Assembly (NCBI GenBank): GCA_016931225.1
Contig: JAFGFE010000026.1
Location: 11,499 to 75,498, forward strand
Length of the DNA: 64,000 bases
Direction of reading: 5' to 3'
DNA from: Candidatus Zymogenaceae bacterium
GTDB taxonomy: Bacteria; Desulfobacterota; Zymogenia; Zymogenales; Zymogenaceae
In this document: piece by piece, positions 3,755 to 23,780 of the stretch
How the letters are laid out: every line of letters begins with the position of its first letter
Position numbering within the stretch: position 1 is the first letter of the stretch
Notes under the pieces: model-generated
Told to the model about the DNA's origin: nothing
Seen by the model: the letters and a program-made list of their open reading frames with translations, nothing else
Database searches by the model: none
Made by a program: the position numbers and the translations under genes

Positions 3755-4357
3755 ATATCTCCTCCTTAATTCATCGATGTTTTGCGATTCAGCTCCGATA
3801 CGGATCCGTACGCACCCGAAAGCGGCGCGATCCATACCGTTGTAATGTGTGCCGGCTGGGCGGTCTTGTCACAATGGGCTTTGGACCGCATGCCGGCTCA
3901 TATACACCACAAACGCTCTCTTTTCTTTTTCACATAAGGAGAATAAAGCCGAAAGGGCACAGATGCACATCTCGGTATCACGATAGACGTGAGACGGGGG
4001 AACCTGCGTCGAAATGGGGAAAAACAGTAGGCGCAGATATAGCGGCTCATGAGGCTCATGATTATTCTCCTTTCCAAACACGGGAGGCGTGGCCGTTTCC
4101 AGCCAAACCCTATCGGCCAAGCACCGTGGAGAAGGAGAAAAGCCTCTCCCGAAGGCGACGTATCAAACCACTCTGTCCGGTAAGTCCGTCCACATCTCTT
4201 TAGGCACTGTGGCTCGGAGAATCTGTCTGCTTATGTTTTAAAAAAAACGCGAGACTATGTCAAGATATTTCTGCCCGTGCTCGAAATTTACCCGTCCGAG
4301 ACCCCCACCGTGTCGGTCTCATCCTATGTAATACACTATTTTTAAAACATAAAACGC

Positions 4358-11176: not shown

Positions 11177-11486
11177 GCCGGCCGTCTCCGGCGGTACTCA
11201 TGCCGCGCGGTATGATCGTCGTTTCAGGGAAACGGGCTCGTTTGCCGCCCGTGACGCACGAGGGGAATTCTTTTATTTTTTTAATTCAAAATGGAAAAAT
11301 GCGCGGTGATATCATCCGGTGCGGACATGGGGAATGTCCGCTCGGCCGTTTGAGCGCCTTAAAAAAGCTCCGACGGATCGAAGACGACGTAAACGGCCGG
11401 GCGCACGTCGCCCCACGAAAAGCGGAACTCGCACGCTGAACGAATAGTCATTGAGACGTTCGGCGGCGGGATGTGCTCCATCTCCC

Positions 11487-11741
11487 TTACACGAAGGGCC
11501 ACGCCGGCCCGGACTCCACCAGCACGATCTCCTCGCACCCGGGACACCAGAAGGCCTGCGCCGTCTCGGCGGCCACCACCCCCAGCTCCGGGTCGGTATT
11601 GACCGATACCAGGATGGTCTCCACCAGGCGCAGCTCCGCCCCGCATTCGAAGCAGGTGGCGTAGACGTCCTCGTCGAAATCGATGATGTCTTCAACGAAG
11701 AACTTTATCCCGTCCTTGACTACAATCTCTCCCACTTTCAT
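11487..11741 (-). CDS. Small hypothetical Cys4 zinc-ribbon protein, immediately upstream of fdhD on the same strand
   Basis: 84 aa from ATG 11741 (GGGGGA 6-7 nt upstream). CFEC..CPGC motifs. No family recognised. Confidence 0.4.
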   Translation of the reverse strand: MKVGEIVVKDGIKFFVEDIIDFDEDVYATCFECGAELRLVETILVSVNTDPELGVVAAETAQAFWCPGCEEIVLVESGPAWPFV

Positions 11742-12412
11742 GGCTATCCCCCGGATAAACCTGTGTGTCGCAAACGATAGTCTCGGTTCCCGGGGGATGA
11801 AATCCGCGCATCCTAGTATTTCTCGGAATCCTTGTATAAATATACCGCAGGCTGTCAGGGGAAAGGTCGTCGGTTTTATATGCATGAAGCGGTGAAAGGC
11901 CGGTGAGATATGAGGGCAGAGGAAAAAAATGATGAACAAAACATGCCGGAAAGATCATTCCGATCGGCGCATGAAAAGAGCATTCCCCGATCACCGAGTT
12001 GAATGATATTTCATATGGGCTATAACACCTCCAAAAAGGTCTCTTGAGGCTATTATTCTACCGGGAAACGGGATGGATGTCAAAAGTTATTTATGAGACC
12101 ATAAGTAATAGTTTATGTGCTGTTTTTTTTACTGCCTTGTCGGTGAACTGAGGCGCGCTTTCGGATCACATACACACCGTCATACCATCCGGGCGAAGCG
12201 ATGGGGCGATCCCTTTGCCTTTGCCCTGTTCCCTATTTCCCCTAAAGGAGGAGTGACGGCCCGGCCCAGAGGCGTCTCACTCCGGAGGCGAGCCGTACAG
12301 TATCCGGGTGGGGGGTTCGAAAAAAAAGCAAAAGAGTCCATAATTCGATGAGTATTTTTCACCATTCTTAGCATACGCTCCTTTTTATAATTTCATTAAC
12401 GTAAAATGTTAA

Positions 12413-12441
12413 TTGACACATTGTGAGAAATTTACTATATT
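12413..12441 (+). promoter_or_regulatory. Consensus sigma70 promoter (TTGACA-N17-TATATT) driving the OLD-family nuclease gene
   Basis: Seen in sequence within the AT-rich stretch, about 35 nt before the RBS (TGAGGT) and ATG 12475. Confidence 0.5.
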
Positions 12442-12474
12442 TACCAATAGTTAATAAAAAACTGAGGTTTCAAA

Positions 12475-14313
12475 ATGAAGTTAGAAAAGTTGATAATATC
12501 AAATTTCAGAGCTTTTAACGGTACTCACGAAATTTCATTCAATGACTTAACGGTATTCATTGGAAAGAATGATATAGGAAAATCTTCAATTCTGGATGCT
12601 CTCGAAATTTTTTTCAATTCAGGTAAAATTGATTCCTCTGATATTAGTATTCACCCAAGTCCAAAAGATAATACTACCAGTAGCATCGGATGTGTTTTTT
12701 CTAAACTACCAGAAGAAATTATCCTTGATGCGAATGCAAAAACATCTTTGAAAGAGGAATATATACTAAATAAAGATGGTTTTTTAGAGATACATAAATC
12801 TTTTAATTTTTCCTCTGCAAAAAATCCAAAAGCTAAAATAATTGCAAAGGCTTACCATCCAACAGAAGAAACCTTTAAAGTATTATTGCATAAAAAGAAC
12901 GCTGATTTAAAAAAACTGGCAGAAGAAAAAGATATTCCAAGCAACGTAGACAAGAGATCAAATGTTGAGCTAAGAAAATTCCTTTGGAGTACTATCGACG
13001 ATTTAAAATTTGACAATGAAGACATCGATCTAGAAAAAGAAGATGCAAGAAAATTATGGGATCAAATTTCGAAAAAACTCCCTCTATTTGCACTATTCAA
13101 AACAGATCGGCCAAGCACAGATGAAGATTCTGAAGTACAAGACCCCATGAAACTTGCTGTAAAGCAGGTAATAAGTGAAATTGAAAATGAATTAGAAACC
13201 ATCAAAGAAAGAATTAAAGAAGAAACTCTTGATGTCGCAACAAGAACGGTTGAAAAACTTAAAGAAATAGATAGCACTCTTGCAGAAGAACTTAAACCAA
13301 CTTTTAAAGAAGAACCAAAGTGGAGTAATATTTTCAAACTTTCACTAACTGATGAAAATCAGATACCTATTAACAAGAGAGGGAGCGGTGTAAGACGACT
13401 TATCCTTATAAGCTTTCTACAAGCAGAGGCTGAAAGAAAACGATCTTCTGAGAATAAAGATAATCTTATTCTTGCTATAGAAGAACCAGAAACTTCACAA
13501 CACCCAGACAATCAGAAACTATTAATCGAGGCACTTGAACAACTATCACAAAAGGAAGGTTATCAAATAATAACAACAACACATGTACCTGCATTGGCAG
13601 GATTAGTGCCTATAAGAAGTATACGGTATATCGAAAAGGCACCAGATAATATAAGACAAATTCAAACAGGTACAGATGACACTGTATTGGAAAAAGTATC
13701 TAATAGTCTCGGTGTTCTGGCAGATAGGAGAGTTAAAGCCATAATTTGTGTTGAAGGTCCCTCAGATGTTAAATATCTAAAGTGTTTTTCAAAAATTCTT
13801 AACAAAAAAGATAACGAAACACCAAACCTAGAGAATACGAATGAAGTTGTGTTCATTCCTATGGGTGGCCGAACTTTACAAGATTGGGTAAACGATAAAT
13901 ATCTTAAACCTTTCGGTCTACCTATGTATTATATTTTTGACAGAGGAGATGAGAATAAGTATGAGGAACAAGCGAATAACATCAATAGTGACCAAGATAA
14001 ATCAATAGCATACATAACTAATGAAAGAGAAATCGAAAACTACTTACATTCATCTGCTATTGAAAAAGCGATTGGAGTTCGAATAGAAATAACTGATACC
14101 AATAAAGTAGCTGAGGAACTCGCAAAACATATTCACTGTAGTGCCCCCAACGCCAAAGAATGGAAAAATTTATCTCCGGAGGAGATAAAGAAAAAAACTA
14201 CCAGATGTAAAAAGAGATTATGCAATGAAGTATTACCATTTATCACATTAAAAATGATTGAAGAAAGAAATGCTATCGAAGAAATTAGTATGTGGCTTGA
14301 ACCATTAAAATGA
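12475..14313 (+). CDS. OLD-family ATP-dependent endonuclease (N-terminal ABC/AAA_15-21 ATPase + C-terminal Toprim); class-1-like stand-alone defence nuclease
   Basis: 612 aa. Walker A FIGKNDIGKSSILDAL; ABC signature/Walker B LILAIEEPETSQHP. The C-terminal AIICVEGPSDV..FIPMGG..IFDRGDEN..NEREIENY block is consistent with Toprim acidic residues. The gene is strongly AT-rich compared with its flanks. Confidence 0.8.
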   Translation: MKLEKLIISNFRAFNGTHEISFNDLTVFIGKNDIGKSSILDALEIFFNSGKIDSSDISIHPSPKDNTTSSIGCVFSKLPEEIILDANAKTSLKEEYILNKDGFLEIHKSFNFSSAKNPKAKIIAKAYHPTEETFKVLLHKKNADLKKLAEEKDIPSNVDKRSNVELRKFLWSTIDDLKFDNEDIDLEKEDARKLWDQISKKLPLFALFKTDRPSTDEDSEVQDPMKLAVKQVISEIENELETIKERIKEETLDVATRTVEKLKEIDSTLAEELKPTFKEEPKWSNIFKLSLTDENQIPINKRGSGVRRLILISFLQAEAERKRSSENKDNLILAIEEPETSQHPDNQKLLIEALEQLSQKEGYQIITTTHVPALAGLVPIRSIRYIEKAPDNIRQIQTGTDDTVLEKVSNSLGVLADRRVKAIICVEGPSDVKYLKCFSKILNKKDNETPNLENTNEVVFIPMGGRTLQDWVNDKYLKPFGLPMYYIFDRGDENKYEEQANNINSDQDKSIAYITNEREIENYLHSSAIEKAIGVRIEITDTNKVAEELAKHIHCSAPNAKEWKNLSPEEIKKKTTRCKKRLCNEVLPFITLKMIEERNAIEEISMWLEPLK

Positions 14314-14330
14314 TTTGAGAATAATTACTT

Positions 14331-15185
14331 TCAGAAATAATTCCTGAACGGGTGGGTTAACAGAAATACGTCCATGTCCCGGATGAGAGACGGGGGGATG
14401 GTGGTGGCCACGCCGATATTCTGGACGAGTGTGTTCATCCCCACCACCAGGCCCACGCACTTGAGCATGTCGTCCCGAAGGTCCAGGGCGAAGACCGGAC
14501 CGCCGGAGTTTCCGGGCATGAAGATATCGTTGGCGACGATAATAAAGGCGTTTTCGTCGGTGAGGATCACGTCCGCGTCCGGCTCGGATATCTGGGCGCC
14601 GATGAGCTTCGGGTGTCCGTCGCCTCCGTAGCCCATATAATAAATGAAGAAGTTCATCTCATCGGGCGTCGGCCCGAATTCGAAGGACGTGGTATGTTCC
14701 ACGTCATAAAAGGACATCAGGTGCAGCAGGAGAAGGTCGTAGCTGGGATAGCGCCTGACCACCTTCAACGGGACAACTTTCCCCTGATGAAGGAGAAACA
14801 TATCCCCGGTCATGTGCGAGTCCACGTGATTGGCCGTCAGGACGAAGAGATTCCGATGATACTCAAAGACGATGCCGCTCCCCATGGCATCGGTTGTATA
14901 GACCGGGTGAATGCCCCGATACAGATCCAACACCTGCTCCTGGTCGATCCAAAAGCTGTTCCGGGCGTAATCGCTTTTGGGCAATCCCCAGAGCGTGGAT
15001 TTCAAAACCGAAAACAGGGGCGGGACTATCCCCGGGGCGATCACCAGCAACAGAAAAAGCGCAAGCAGCGTGCCCAGAATCATATTCCGGAAGCGCGTCT
15101 TCGATTCCTGCTGTTTCTGTTTCTGCTCCGCCAGGGCGGCCAGGGCGGCCGGTGAGAGCCGCTGTTTGTGATTCTGTGTATTCAT
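14331..15185 (-). CDS. Membrane-anchored trypsin-like (S1/chymotrypsin-fold) serine protease
   Basis: 284 aa. N-terminal TM helix; catalytic-triad-like TANHV (His), a conserved Asp, and MPGNSGGPV (Ser). Confidence 0.7.
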   Translation of the reverse strand: MNTQNHKQRLSPAALAALAEQKQKQQESKTRFRNMILGTLLALFLLLVIAPGIVPPLFSVLKSTLWGLPKSDYARNSFWIDQEQVLDLYRGIHPVYTTDAMGSGIVFEYHRNLFVLTANHVDSHMTGDMFLLHQGKVVPLKVVRRYPSYDLLLLHLMSFYDVEHTTSFEFGPTPDEMNFFIYYMGYGGDGHPKLIGAQISEPDADVILTDENAFIIVANDIFMPGNSGGPVFALDLRDDMLKCVGLVVGMNTLVQNIGVATTIPPSLIRDMDVFLLTHPFRNYF

Positions 15186-21229: not shown

Positions 21230-22453
21230 TTGATTATGTTAGAAGAATTTTTTCTTACCACAGGTATTAGGTTTATTTATCGGCTATGGGAAAAGCTTGC
21301 AAAAAAATTTAAAATTAAACGCGGCAAACTAATTCACGTTATATTCGAAGAAGAATATGCCGAAGAATTTTATTCTTTTATTCCCTTTGTGGATATTATC
21401 AAATACAGGGACGATCTTTTACAAATTCGTGATGCGTGGATTATGTTCAAAGGAGATAAAAATCCTTTTGGAAAGAAGGAGACAACAACATACAAATACT
21501 CTTTGAATAGAGACTCAATAACTCCAAAAGAAATAAAACACAGCGAAGAAGTTTCTTTCGGACATGTATGGCTCCCGCAAAACCTTTCTGAAATAGTAGA
21601 ATCAAAAGATGTTCATCTTTTTTTCAAGGATGGTAAAGACAAAGAACACTCCTACTGCTTTGAAAAAGAAAACTTATCTTCTTTGAGACGTTGGTTTTCA
21701 ACTCGACAGATTAAAAACAGTGACTACATCGTTCATATTATATGCGGAACTGAAATAACCCGCGACCACAGGGGCAGGATTATCGATAATAAACCCAGCC
21801 TCTTTTTCACTAACCCAAGAAAACGAGGAGATGTTCCTGTTAAGGAATTTGCATCTAATCCTCTTCCTGTTTCAATGATTCAACCTTCGGATTCCACCAC
21901 TAACATTGATGAGGTTCTTCCTCTTGAAATAATAAAGTATCGCTACTGCCCGGAAGACCCGAATTTTTTTCTTTTTTTTGTTAAGAATTATCACCCACAT
22001 CAAGCTGCTGTCACCGATCGAGGAGTTTTACAATACGGTGATGAACATTTTGAACTTCGTGGTAACTATTACTCTACCGTAATAAAGTATAAACATAAAA
22101 TTAGTTCCACCAAAGATTTCGAAGATATCCATCATGCAATGTCCGTTCTTGGATTAAAAGAACTCCCTATAGAGGCCGCTATTAAATTTGCCGGGAAAAA
22201 AGAAATTCTGGAAGGCGAAAAACCAGCTCCTTATTACGCGAATAATGGCATTATTCCTTTCGGTCAAACTTTTTGGGTTGTAATGAAAATAAGAGATAAA
22301 AAAGGTAAGGAACTATTGGGGAAAAGCGTAAAAGTCGTTTTGAAAAACGGCGGTATGCCTGTGAGTCGCCCCTTCGAATTCTTAGTCGGGACCGAAAAAG
22401 AACTCATTGAAAAGCACACTACTAAGATTTCTTTTTCTCCTTTTGTCCTCTAA
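21230..22453 (+). CDS. Hypothetical protein (407 aa), strongly AT-rich orphan gene inserted immediately upstream of dinB
   Basis: Long clean ORF (Lys/Asn/Ile/Phe-rich) in an AT-rich island; TTG 21230 or ATG 21236 start; no recognisable domain. Confidence 0.6.
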   Translation: MIMLEEFFLTTGIRFIYRLWEKLAKKFKIKRGKLIHVIFEEEYAEEFYSFIPFVDIIKYRDDLLQIRDAWIMFKGDKNPFGKKETTTYKYSLNRDSITPKEIKHSEEVSFGHVWLPQNLSEIVESKDVHLFFKDGKDKEHSYCFEKENLSSLRRWFSTRQIKNSDYIVHIICGTEITRDHRGRIIDNKPSLFFTNPRKRGDVPVKEFASNPLPVSMIQPSDSTTNIDEVLPLEIIKYRYCPEDPNFFLFFVKNYHPHQAAVTDRGVLQYGDEHFELRGNYYSTVIKYKHKISSTKDFEDIHHAMSVLGLKELPIEAAIKFAGKKEILEGEKPAPYYANNGIIPFGQTFWVVMKIRDKKGKELLGKSVKVVLKNGGMPVSRPFEFLVGTEKELIEKHTTKISFSPFVL

Positions 22454-22481
22454 CATATTTTTTCTTATTTTTAAAAAACCC

Positions 22482-23780
22482 ATGACCACCACACCCGACA
22501 GCCCGTTACCCAAAAGCTCCTTCCCGGGGCCGAGGCACTACCGCCCCGGCGGGGAGATTGAGCGGGTCGTGCTGCATTTGGATATGGACGCCTTCTTCGC
22601 CCAGGTGGAGCAGGTCACAAACCCCCATCTTTTGGGAAAGCCCATCGCCGTGGTGGGGAGCAAAAAGCGCACGGTGGTGGTCACCTCCTCGTACGAGGCG
22701 AGAAAATACGGCGTCAAGACCGCCATGACCATCGGCGAGGTGAGGCGTCTCTGCCCGGAGATCATCTTCGTCCCCGGCAACAACCGGAAATACATCGACA
22801 CGTCCGTGCGCATCATCAACGTCCTCAAGGAATTCAGCCCCGACGTGGAGGTCTACTCCATCGACGAGGCCTTCGTGGACATCACGGGCTCCTTGCGCCT
22901 CTTCGGCGGGTCGGAGGCCATCGCCCACAGCATCAAGGAGCGCATCCTTGATGAGGTGGGGCTGACCGCCTCCATCGGCGTTGCCCCCAACAAGCTGGTG
23001 GCGAAGATCGCCAGTGACCTGAAAAAGCCGGACGGCCTGGTGATCCTCACGGAAGCCGACGTCCCCGGCCTGATGGAGACCCTCCCCATCGAGGAGGTCT
23101 GCGGCATCGGCCGGCGCACCGCCGCCAAGCTCCACTCCCTGGGCGTCTCCACCTGCGGCGAGCTGGGACGCTACCCGGTCTCGGTGCTCACAAAAAAATT
23201 CGGCGTCATCGGCGAATACCTCCACTGCATGGGCAAGGGCCTCGATTCCAGCCCCGTCATCCCCGCAGGGCAAGAGGACGACGTCAAAAGCATCGGCCAC
23301 TCCATGACGTTTCCCTTTGATGTGGAGGACAGAGACGGCCTTTCCCATTATCTGCTGCTCCTCTCGGCGAAGGTGGGGCGCCGCGCCCGGCGGGCGGGAT
23401 GCGCCGGGCGCACCGTGGCCCTCTATGTCCGCTTCGCCGACTTCACCGGAGTGGGCAGGCGGACCACCTGCCACCACCACATCCAGCTCGACGCCGACAT
23501 CTATGAGACGGCTCTTGAGATCCTCTCCTCCATCGAGCTGACCCAGCCGGTGCGGCTTCTGGGGGTGAGCCTCTCCAACCTGACCCATACGGGACGGCAG
23601 CTCCCCCTCTTCTCCGGGGAGCGGCGGGAGTTCTTATTGGCCCGCGCCATGGACTCCATCCGGGATCTCTTCGGCGACGACGCCGTGGCCTACGCCTCCA
23701 TCACGGACCGCATCAGCGAGGCGGGGGTCATCTCCCCGGCGTGGCGTCCCGCGGGACCCCGGCGGGTGGACCCGCGATGA
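22482..23780 (+). CDS. dinB: DNA polymerase IV (Y-family translesion polymerase DinB)
   Basis: VVLHLDMDAFFAQVEQ..SIDEAFVDITGS..GIGRRTAAKL motifs. The ORF frame opens at 22407 inside the AT-rich island; the start is most likely ATG 22482 or the downstream GTG. Confidence 0.9.
   Translation: MTTTPDSPLPKSSFPGPRHYRPGGEIERVVLHLDMDAFFAQVEQVTNPHLLGKPIAVVGSKKRTVVVTSSYEARKYGVKTAMTIGEVRRLCPEIIFVPGNNRKYIDTSVRIINVLKEFSPDVEVYSIDEAFVDITGSLRLFGGSEAIAHSIKERILDEVGLTASIGVAPNKLVAKIASDLKKPDGLVILTEADVPGLMETLPIEEVCGIGRRTAAKLHSLGVSTCGELGRYPVSVLTKKFGVIGEYLHCMGKGLDSSPVIPAGQEDDVKSIGHSMTFPFDVEDRDGLSHYLLLLSAKVGRRARRAGCAGRTVALYVRFADFTGVGRRTTCHHHIQLDADIYETALEILSSIELTQPVRLLGVSLSNLTHTGRQLPLFSGERREFLLARAMDSIRDLFGDDAVAYASITDRISEAGVISPAWRPAGPRRVDPR

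What the first reader, a model, noticed from the sequence alone, without database searches (positions are those of the whole stretch)
11950..14330. AT-rich single-gene island encoding a stand-alone OLD-family (ABC ATPase + Toprim) nuclease with its own consensus promoter; candidate anti-phage defence locus
A ~2.4-kb stretch sits between the GC-rich fdh accessory genes and a GC-rich protease gene. It is conspicuously AT-rich, and the protein is Lys/Asn/Ile-rich, which points to horizontal acquisition. It carries a single 612-aa ORF with N-terminal ABC-type Walker A/B motifs and a C-terminal Toprim-like acidic cluster (VEGPSD … DRGDE … NEREIE), the hallmark of OLD-family nucleases (P2 Old, Gabija GajA, PARIS AriAB). 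No helicase (GajB) or separate DUF4435 (AriB) partner follows, so it resembles class-1 OLD or a fused AriA-AriB. Its TTGACA-N17-TATATT promoter implies autonomous expression. No integrase or flanking direct repeat is visible, so the insertion mechanism is unclear.
Basis: partly seen in the sequence, partly recalled or inferred. Interest (0 to 1): 0.8.

Follow-up and report, generated by a model that had tools for sequence, protein, structure and literature searches.

The report
Imported stand-alone OLD-type nuclease gene
A foreign, AT-rich gene for a single-protein ATPase-plus-nuclease of the OLD family, a known kind of anti-phage defence enzyme, has replaced a small host gene in an otherwise conserved stretch of this bacterial genome; it is a clean example of a known kind of system, not a new one.

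The parts
12135..14330 (.). Segment with no counterpart in related genomes. It replaces about 710 bp carrying a TfoX_N gene.
   Evidence: blastn: window 11460-12134 matches L017 9196-8524 at 81% over 685 bp. Homology resumes at 14331, the Trypsin_2 stop. L018 gives the same junctions.
12135..12345 (.). GC-rich block (GC 0.57) of unresolved origin at the left end of the segment.
   Evidence: No blastn or tblastn match to relatives or to TfoX. No unusual RNA fold on either strand, z -0.05 and -0.23.
12346..14330 (+). AT-rich core (GC 0.32): promoter plus gene.
12413..12441 (+). Sigma-70-like promoter, TTGACA-17-TATATT.
   Evidence: 11/12 matches. P = 0.002 by simulation. Function not tested.
12464..12467 (+). 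Shine-Dalgarno-like GAGG, 7 nt upstream of the ATG.
   Evidence: Read from the sequence.
12475..14313 (+). 612-aa ORF: OLD-family ATPase-Toprim protein.
12475..13596 (+). Residues 1-374: ABC ATPase. Motifs are Walker A G30..G35-K36-S37, Q222, G303-S304-G305, Walker B E336/E337 and H370. A helical insertion spans about residues 224-290.
   Evidence: Pfam AAA_15 3.7e-78. The family profile matches TsOLD 6p74 at 4.5e-18. These motif residues are invariant or near-invariant across 118 homologues: 118/118, except G35 and E336 at 117/118. Helices come from the model.
13726..14094 (+). Residues about 418-540: Toprim fold. Key residues are E427, D431, G464-G465, D489 (then R-G-D-E), T515, E519, E521, N522 and H525.
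14095..14310 (+). Residues about 541-612: C-terminal helical bundle with invariant K579.
   Evidence: DSSP helices 545-556, 568-589, 592-597 and 601-608. K579 is 118/118. Equivalence to BpOLD K562 is inferred, not tested.
12055..12083 (-). Host promoter-like site (TTGACA-17-TAGAAT) facing the zinc-ribbon gene. It is not part of the import.
   Evidence: It is conserved in L017 and L018 in the junction alignment.
11487..11741 (-). Host 84-aa zinc-ribbon gene: left syntenic anchor.
   Evidence: Called gene in L007. Homologous 84-aa genes occur in L017-L019.
14331..15185 (-). Host Trypsin_2 peptidase gene: right syntenic anchor. It is convergent, and its stop lies 17 bp from the OLD stop.
   Evidence: Pfam Trypsin_2 6.2e-10. 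Relatives at 86% and 73% identity occur in syntenic contigs.

Best explanation
This is a horizontally acquired, self-contained cassette (promoter, ribosome site, one gene). It encodes a single-protein OLD-family enzyme with an N-terminal ABC ATPase, a helical insertion that is probably a dimerisation element, a C-terminal Toprim nuclease domain and a helical bundle. In this lineage it replaced a native TfoX_N gene in a conserved slot between the Trypsin_2 gene and a zinc-ribbon gene. Shown: the domain identity, the foreign composition, the replacement and its junctions, and the absence of any partner gene. Inferred: it acts as an autonomous anti-phage or anti-mobile-element defence in the manner of Class 1 OLD nucleases. 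On that view the ATPase senses or gates, perhaps responding to a phage counter-defence protein or to aberrant DNA. The Toprim site (E427/D489 for metal A; D431 with T515/E519/E521 for metal B; K579 or H525 as the charge-stabilising residue) then nicks or degrades DNA in a metal-dependent way, which blocks phage replication or aborts infection.
For: Domain identity:
- AAA_15 at 3.7e-78.
- PADLOC Old at 1e-29, and many GajA models, some aligning through residues 555-573.
- TsOLD is the best PDB sequence match, at 1.9e-7 for the single sequence and 4.5e-18 for the profile.
- The whole-chain model's top Foldseek hits are TsOLD, GajA and the retron-Eco8 OLD.
- The C-terminal model's top hits are OLD C-terminal regions.
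- Candidate catalytic residues sit at the canonical Toprim positions and are 118/118 conserved, matching the metal A/B scheme of PMC7049728.

Acquisition:
- GC3 is 0.227 against 0.70-0.89 for host genes.
- The nearest homologue among 5.8 billion proteins is only 52% identical.
- Syntenic relatives carry a native-composition TfoX_N gene instead.

Expression signals:
- The 11/12 promoter has P = 0.002, and an SD-like site precedes the ATG.

Defence role, by association and precedent:
- Five of seven nearest relatives on long contigs sit inside BREX-like operons.
- One relative lies next to GmrSD and RhuM.
- 397 plasmid records carry the family.
- Single-gene OLDs are shown to defend: Vc OLD (PMC12392090), HEC-04 (bioRxiv 10.1101/2024.01.29.577857) and YbjD (PMC13261556).
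Against: - There is no functional data for this family.
- Pfam OLD-like_TOPRIM is below its cut-off in every member tested.
- The C-terminal profile finds no PDB sequence relative.
- The second Asp of the Toprim DxD is Gly in this protein and in 23 of 118 relatives.
- The window copy departs from near-invariant positions more than any other member, 19 of 166 against a median of 1, including K517E.
- It is not in a defence island: its neighbours are fdh accessory genes, a peptidase and LexA.
- Its nearest clade is operon-embedded with abutting or overlapping ORFs, so it may normally depend on BREX partners.
Confidence: 0.65

Rival explanations
1. It is a fused PARIS-like (AriA-AriB) system. The ATPase senses anti-restriction DNA mimics such as Ocr, and the released or activated Toprim domain cleaves host tRNA to abort infection.
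Against: The AriA PADLOC model covers only residues 1-374 and matches over the same span as Pfam's generic AAA_15 profile. The family profile matches TsOLD at 4.5e-18 and GajA at 1e-11, but AriA only at 2.4e-4. AriA is absent from the top 50 whole-chain fold matches. There is no DUF4435 hit at E <= 10. The full-length protein does not place the AriAB model among its best 25.
Confidence: 0.15
2. It is an orphaned BREX accessory gene. It was torn from a type-3-like BREX operon, needs BREX partners to act, and so is inert or decaying here.
For: Five of seven nearest relatives on long contigs occupy one fixed position, between the PglX-like methyltransferase and the SNF2 helicase, with abutting or overlapping ORFs. 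The window has no BREX genes. The window copy is the most divergent member, has Gly in place of the second DxD Asp, and has K517E.
Against: The ORF is intact, and all 118/118-invariant ATPase and Toprim residues are kept. It has its own strong promoter-like site and SD. Other members stand alone between housekeeping genes (P0015, P0060). 256 plasmid records carry full-length copies, and the three inspected have no BREX genes nearby. The outlier status is partly an artefact of a set chosen by similarity to the query.
Confidence: 0.12
3. It has a non-defence role, such as maintenance, competition or recombination functions of mobile elements, or a DNA-transaction or cell-cycle role.
For: The family is common on plasmids, 304 of 397 of them conjugative. 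It often lies next to a small serine recombinase. An archaeal OLD-family ATPase, Cran1, works in cell-cycle progression, not defence (PMC12796447).
Against: BREX embedding and GmrSD/RhuM neighbours point to conflict functions. Recombinases are common on plasmids in any case. The window copy is not on a recognisable mobile element.
Confidence: 0.08

Closest known systems
Class 1 OLD-family nucleases (Thermus scotoductus OLD, PDB 6P74; P2 Old; Vibrio cholerae Vc OLD; E. coli YbjD)
   Same: It is a single gene with no dedicated partner. It has an N-terminal ABC ATPase with a helical insertion and a C-terminal Toprim. TsOLD is the best PDB match by sequence and by whole-chain fold. A Glu, an acidic residue at Glu+4 and an Asp after strand 3 are all conserved.
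   Different: Similarity to P2 Old and YbjD is confined to the ATPase. Phage P2 gives no tblastn match at 1e-5. The protein is 612 aa against 525 for TsOLD. It has a C-terminal helical bundle, which TsOLD lacks (PMC7049728; model). The second DxD Asp is Gly here. Pfam's OLD Toprim model does not reach threshold.
Class 2 OLD / Gabija GajA (BpOLD C-terminal region 6NK8; GajA 8SM3, 8X5I)
   Different: No UvrD-like GajB helicase lies next to it here or in any relative inspected. Sequence identity is 15-16%.
OLD-ABC + TOPRIM 'backup effector' modules embedded in BREX loci (PMC12839542), and the embedded single-gene ATPase-TOPRIM defence HEC-04 (bioRxiv 10.1101/2024.01.29.577857)
   Same: The nearest relatives (50-52% identity) are embedded at a fixed position in type-3-like BREX operons. 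HEC-04 is likewise a single ATPase-Toprim fusion whose Walker A and metal-site mutants lose defence.
   Different: The window copy is not embedded in anything. HEC-04 is shorter (its catalytic Glu is at residue 319, against 427 here) and came from Hma systems. No HEC model is among the top 25 PADLOC hits.
PARIS (AriA + AriB, or fused AriAB)
   Different: The ATPase is much closer to TsOLD and GajA than to AriA. There is no DUF4435 signature. PARIS cleaves tRNA, and the substrate here is unknown.

Membership tests
OLD-family nuclease (any class) | N-terminal ABC-type ATPase with a Walker A Lys, a Walker B acidic residue and an H-loop His | tested here: met
   AAA_15 at 3.7e-78. K36, E337 and H370 are 118/118 and E336 is 117/118. 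The profile matches TsOLD at 4.5e-18.
OLD-family nuclease (any class) | Helical (dimerisation) insertion within the ATPase | tested here: inconclusive
   The model has helices at 224-272 inserted in the ATPase, but pLDDT there is 49-83. The oligomeric state was not modelled.
OLD-family nuclease (any class) | C-terminal Toprim fold | tested here: met
OLD-family nuclease (any class) | Sequence match to Pfam OLD-like_TOPRIM (PF20469) at the gathering score | tested here: not met
   15.8-18.0 bits against a cut-off of 23.2. It is the only recurrent family, seen in 5 of 22 members, but always below threshold.
OLD-family nuclease (any class) | Metal A ligands: Toprim Glu plus both Asp of DxD | tested here: inconclusive
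   E427 and D489 are invariant. The second position is Gly in the window (D-R-G-D-E), Asp in 93 and Gly in 23 of 118. Whether D492 substitutes cannot be judged without coordinates.
OLD-family nuclease (any class) | Metal B ligands: an acidic residue at Glu+4, plus S/T/D-x-E after strand 4 | tested here: met
   D431 is 118/118. T515 is 118/118, followed by E519 (116/118) and E521 (118/118). The window itself also reads T515-N-E517. Positions were assigned from DSSP topology against PMC7049728.
Class 1 OLD (genomic definition) | Isolated gene with no helicase, RT or AriB partner | tested here: met
   The neighbours are a zinc-ribbon gene, FdhD, a Trypsin_2 peptidase, a membrane protein and LexA.
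Class 1 OLD (TsOLD structural type) | No helical domain after the Toprim | tested here: not met
Class 2 OLD / Gabija | [quoted passage not shown] | tested here: not met
   None is present in the window, nor beside any relative inspected.
Class 3 OLD / retron | Adjacent reverse transcriptase and ncRNA | tested here: not met
   There is no RT ORF near the gene, and the only Rfam match in the window is a Moco riboswitch.
PARIS (Class 4) | DUF4435-type AriB, separate or fused, and an AriA-type ATPase | tested here: not met
   There is no DUF4435 hit at E <= 10. AriA scores 2.4e-4 against 4.5e-18 for TsOLD. There is only a weak AriAB hit at 8e-4.
BREX-embedded OLD-TOPRIM module | Located within or next to BREX core genes | tested here: not met
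   No BrxC, PglX or PglZ is present in the 64-kb window. The feature is met for relatives P0006, P0010, P0028, P0041 and P0044.

The most novel reading that the evidence does not exclude
This roughly 1,100-cluster family is a distinct OLD class whose home is a fixed slot in type-3-like BREX operons. There it would monitor failure or inhibition of BREX. It would use a Toprim site in which the second DxD aspartate is dispensable and a lysine from a class-2-like helical domain completes the active site. The window copy would then show that the module can be transplanted with only a promoter and still work as an autonomous defence.
Probability: 0.2. Interest if true: 0.55.

Novelty: new member of a known kind. 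Interest (0 to 1): 0.35.

Why it matters
If it is active, this is a minimal natural 'promoter plus one gene' transplant of an OLD-type nuclease into a genome with very different composition, with exact junctions and an identified displaced gene. That makes it a tidy case for studying how single-gene defences spread without integrases. It also gives a compact candidate for testing whether the BREX-associated OLD-Toprim clade can defend on its own, what triggers it, and whether a Toprim site lacking the second DxD aspartate still cleaves. It does not open a new category. Single-gene OLD defence (Vc OLD, HEC-04, YbjD) and OLD-Toprim recruitment into BREX are already published.

Tried and rejected
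- **Species-representative genomes.** Two scans, with Trypsin_2 and with FdhD as queries, found no relative, not even the source genome. The empty-site comparison came later through the protein database.
- **C-terminal profile against PDB sequences.** Nothing was found (best E 0.48).
- **C-terminal profile against 1.84 billion representatives.** It gave 1,102 hits, but the 150 listed are all close family members or fragments. It therefore could not link the domain transitively to recognised Toprim families.
- **Remnants of flanking genes.** I searched the flanks for remnants of TfoX, BREX genes or a recombinase and found only noise.
- **Junction repeats or microhomology.** Only a shared 5-mer, TTACT, was found, which is not meaningful.
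- **GC-rich block 12135-12345.** Tested as a structured RNA, it gave z about 0 on both strands.
- **Active-site geometry.** Model coordinates are not exposed, so the spatial clustering of E427, D431, D489, D492, E519, E521 and K579 could not be measured.
- **'Decay' test.** Counting departures from near-invariant columns is confounded, because the set was selected around the query.
- **Phage origin.** Rejected: only 4 weak, partial phage hits, and none to P2.
- **Defence-island context.** Rejected: the neighbours have no defence-model hits apart from generic domains.
Full report
**1. The observation**

The window has a 612-aa ORF at 12475..14313 on the + strand. GC falls from 0.55-0.70 in the flanks to 0.29-0.35 across it. 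At codon level the contrast is extreme. Gene GC is 0.329 and GC3 is 0.227, against GC3 0.70-0.89 for ten surrounding host genes. F+Y+I+N+K make up 33% of its residues, against 12-24% in most host proteins. It is the lowest-GC 2-kb stretch of the window.

TTGACA-N17-TATATT lies at 12413-12441 with 11 of 12 matches. In 20,000 simulated 129-bp sequences of the same composition, a match this good occurred with frequency 0.002. None occurs on the + strand of the 1.8-kb ORF itself. GAGG sits 7 nt before the ATG.

There is no tRNA, no Rfam element near the gene, no integrase and no repeat beyond chance.

**2. What the protein is**

Residues 1-374 match Pfam AAA_15 at 3.7e-78, with weaker AAA_21 and DUF2813 hits. 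In PADLOC the best model is an AriA profile that covers only this ATPase part. It is followed by Old (1e-29) and about twenty GajA models, some aligning through residues 555-573. The best PDB sequence match is the Class 1 OLD nuclease of Thermus scotoductus, 6P74. It scores 1.9e-7 with the single sequence and 4.5e-18 with a family profile. GajA scores 1e-11 and AriA only 2.4e-4. All of these sequence matches run through the ATPase.

The C-terminal 200 residues are a different matter.
- Pfam OLD-like_TOPRIM scores 15.8-18.0 bits against a cut-off of 23.2. It is the only family that recurs among 22 members, but never above threshold.
- A profile of the C-terminal domain finds nothing in PDB sequences (best E 0.48).
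- Alone against PADLOC, the domain gives only marginal hits to the Toprim parts of a GajA model (7.3e-4) and of the fused AriAB model (8e-4).

The conserved residues fall where a Toprim active site needs them.
- E427 lies at the end of strand 1.
- D431 lies four residues later, at the start of helix 1.
- G464-G465 follow strand 2.
- D489 follows strand 3.
- T515, E519 and E521 follow strand 4.

These positions correspond to the metal A ligands (Glu plus DxD) and metal B ligands (acidic residue at Glu+4 plus S/T/D-x-E) defined for OLD nucleases (PMC7049728). Across 118 full-length homologues, E427, D431, D489, T515, E521, N522, H525 and K579 are invariant. So are the ATPase residues K36, S37, Q222, G303-S304-G305, E337 and H370.

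Two deviations stand out. The second Asp of DxD is Gly in the window protein (D-R-G-D-E) and in 23 of 118 relatives. K517, near-invariant elsewhere, is Glu here.

Unlike TsOLD, the protein continues into a confident helical bundle (residues 545-608) that carries the invariant K579. This resembles the class 2 arrangement, where a Lys from the helical domain completes the site. I could not verify the geometry, because model coordinates are not exposed.

**3. How it got there**

The exact protein occurs only in the source MAG, labelled Deltaproteobacteria / Candidatus Zym... by NCBI, and in one raw assembly of about 13 kb. The next-best protein among 5.8 billion is 52% identical.

Two scans of species-representative genomes found nothing. 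A protein search with the abutting host gene (Trypsin_2) then found relatives at 86% and 73% identity on contigs of 14-17 kb. These keep the gene order LexA, membrane protein, Trypsin_2, X, 84-aa zinc-ribbon gene, MarR, NMO, FdhD, FdhE, cytochrome b, Fdh subunits. In them X is a 122-123-aa TfoX_N gene.

By blastn, homology to the window runs from 11460 to 12134 (81% over 685 bp) and resumes at 14331, the Trypsin_2 stop codon. Both relatives give the same junctions. The foreign segment is therefore 12135-14330 (2,196 bp), in place of about 710 bp.

The TfoX genes have native composition (GC3 0.81-0.84) and occur in two relatives of different divergence, so TfoX is the ancestral occupant. No TfoX remnant is detectable (tblastn finds none at E <= 10).

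The left 211 bp of the segment (12135-12345) is GC-rich (0.57). It matches nothing and has no unusual fold, so its origin is unresolved. The junctions share only a 5-mer. No recombinase, BREX or methyltransferase remnants lie in the flanks. The mechanism of replacement remains unknown.

A TTGACA-17-TAGAAT site on the minus strand there is shared with the relatives.

**4. Context in relatives**

No partner gene is universal. Among the nearest clade (about 50% identity), five of seven members on long contigs lie at one fixed position in a type-3-like BREX operon. The order is BrxF-like, BrxC/PglY, PglX-like N6 methyltransferase, this gene, SNF2 helicase, PglZ, a roughly 255-aa gene. Neighbouring ORFs abut or overlap (P0006, P0010, P0028, P0041, P0044).

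Two members stand alone between housekeeping genes (P0015, P0060). More distant members lie among transposases and a resolvase (P0104), or beside GmrSD and RhuM (P0111).

At 35-44% identity the family occurs on 397 plasmid records, 304 of them conjugative and 256 full-length. In three inspected cases a serine recombinase or a large methyltransferase lies nearby. Phages hardly carry it: there are 4 weak hits and none to P2.

The C-terminal domain profile retrieves 1,102 representatives from 1.84 billion. The full-length ones among the best 150 have the same 600-640-aa architecture. In 11 of 12 loci the gene is less GC-rich than its surroundings.

The window itself has no BREX or other defence genes.

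**5. Mechanism**

Shown: the domain architecture, the conserved catalytic residues, foreign origin, autonomy of the cassette, and a strong promoter-like signal.

Inferred: an autonomous OLD-type defence. By analogy with TsOLD, P2 Old and Vc OLD (PMC7049728; PMC12392090), I propose three steps.
- The helical insertion mediates dimerisation.
- ATP binding and hydrolysis gate the nuclease.
- The Toprim site, with two metals, nicks or degrades DNA.

The BREX association of the nearest clade suggests that the trigger could be a phage anti-restriction factor or failure of a primary system. This has been proposed for OLD-ABC modules in BREX (PMC12839542) and for embedded ABC-ATPase defences (bioRxiv 10.1101/2024.01.29.577857).

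Rivals:
- a fused PARIS-like tRNase (0.15);
- an orphaned BREX accessory that is inert on its own (0.12);
- a non-defence, mobile-element or DNA-transaction role (0.08).

The window copy is the most divergent in the set (19 departures at 166 near-invariant columns). That fits either a long unsampled branch or relaxed constraint. The test is confounded, because the set was chosen around the query.

**6. Comparison and novelty**

By the genomic definition the gene is a Class 1 (single-gene) OLD. Structurally its C-terminal region looks more like class 2, but it has no GajB. It is not retron-linked, and it is not PARIS by sequence. Sources already label some homologues 'putative ATP-dependent endonuclease of the OLD family'.

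Single-gene OLD nucleases have been shown to defend (Vc OLD, YbjD, HEC-04). OLD-ABC plus TOPRIM modules inside BREX loci have been catalogued in at least 1,242 taxa.

I file it as a new member of a known kind. The noteworthy details are a Toprim sub-family that Pfam's model misses, a degenerate DxD, a nearest clade fixed in type-3-like BREX operons, and an unusually clean gene-for-gene replacement.

Interest is 0.35. A specialist would find it tidy and useful as a test case, but not surprising.

Noticed in passing
window 21230-22453 (+): A second AT-rich single-gene patch. It is a 407-aa Lys/Ile/Phe-rich ORF (GC 0.362, GC3 0.319) with no Pfam or PADLOC hit, directly upstream of and slightly overlapping a DinB-like Y-family polymerase gene (22407-23780). 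In the relative L017 the gene directly upstream of DinB is a 278-aa DUF4238 protein instead, so this may be another variable slot.
   Followed up: partly
window 11177-11486, compared with L017 9170-10943 and L018 5957-7778: Related genomes carry MarR and NMO (nitronate monooxygenase-like) genes between the zinc-ribbon gene and FdhD. The window has only about 310 bp there. Two gene-content differences therefore lie within 3 kb of otherwise conserved synteny.
   Followed up: partly
window 12135-12345: A 211-bp GC-rich block (GC 0.57) at the left end of the imported segment. It matches neither the relatives, nor TfoX, nor anything else in the window, and it has no unusual RNA fold. Its origin is unexplained.
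   Followed up: yes
L001/L002, L003, L012, L013, L014 (relatives): The OLD-like gene occupies one fixed position in type-3-like BREX operons, between the PglX-like methyltransferase and the SNF2 helicase. ORFs abut or overlap, which suggests co-translation as an operon member, not a loose insertion.
   Followed up: partly
L008 5413-5970, L010 8096-8674, L005 6286-6840: A small serine recombinase (resolvase family) lies next to the gene on E. coli IncF and Micrococcus plasmids and in one chromosomal relative. On the E. coli plasmid it ends 30 bp upstream, on the same strand.
   Followed up: no
window 4051-4231 (-): A molybdenum-cofactor (Moco) riboswitch, RF01055, at 71 bits, upstream of the formate dehydrogenase region.
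   Followed up: no
window 14169-14189 (-): A terminator-like hairpin (9-bp stem followed by a T run) on the minus strand, inside the 3' end of the OLD ORF and about 140 bp downstream of the convergent Trypsin_2 stop. It could end Trypsin_2 transcripts that read into the imported gene.
   Followed up: no
L001-L014 (relatives): In 11 of 12 loci the homologous gene has lower GC than its surrounding locus, by 0.04-0.16. This suggests that the family is repeatedly transferred, or keeps an AT-leaning composition.
   Followed up: no
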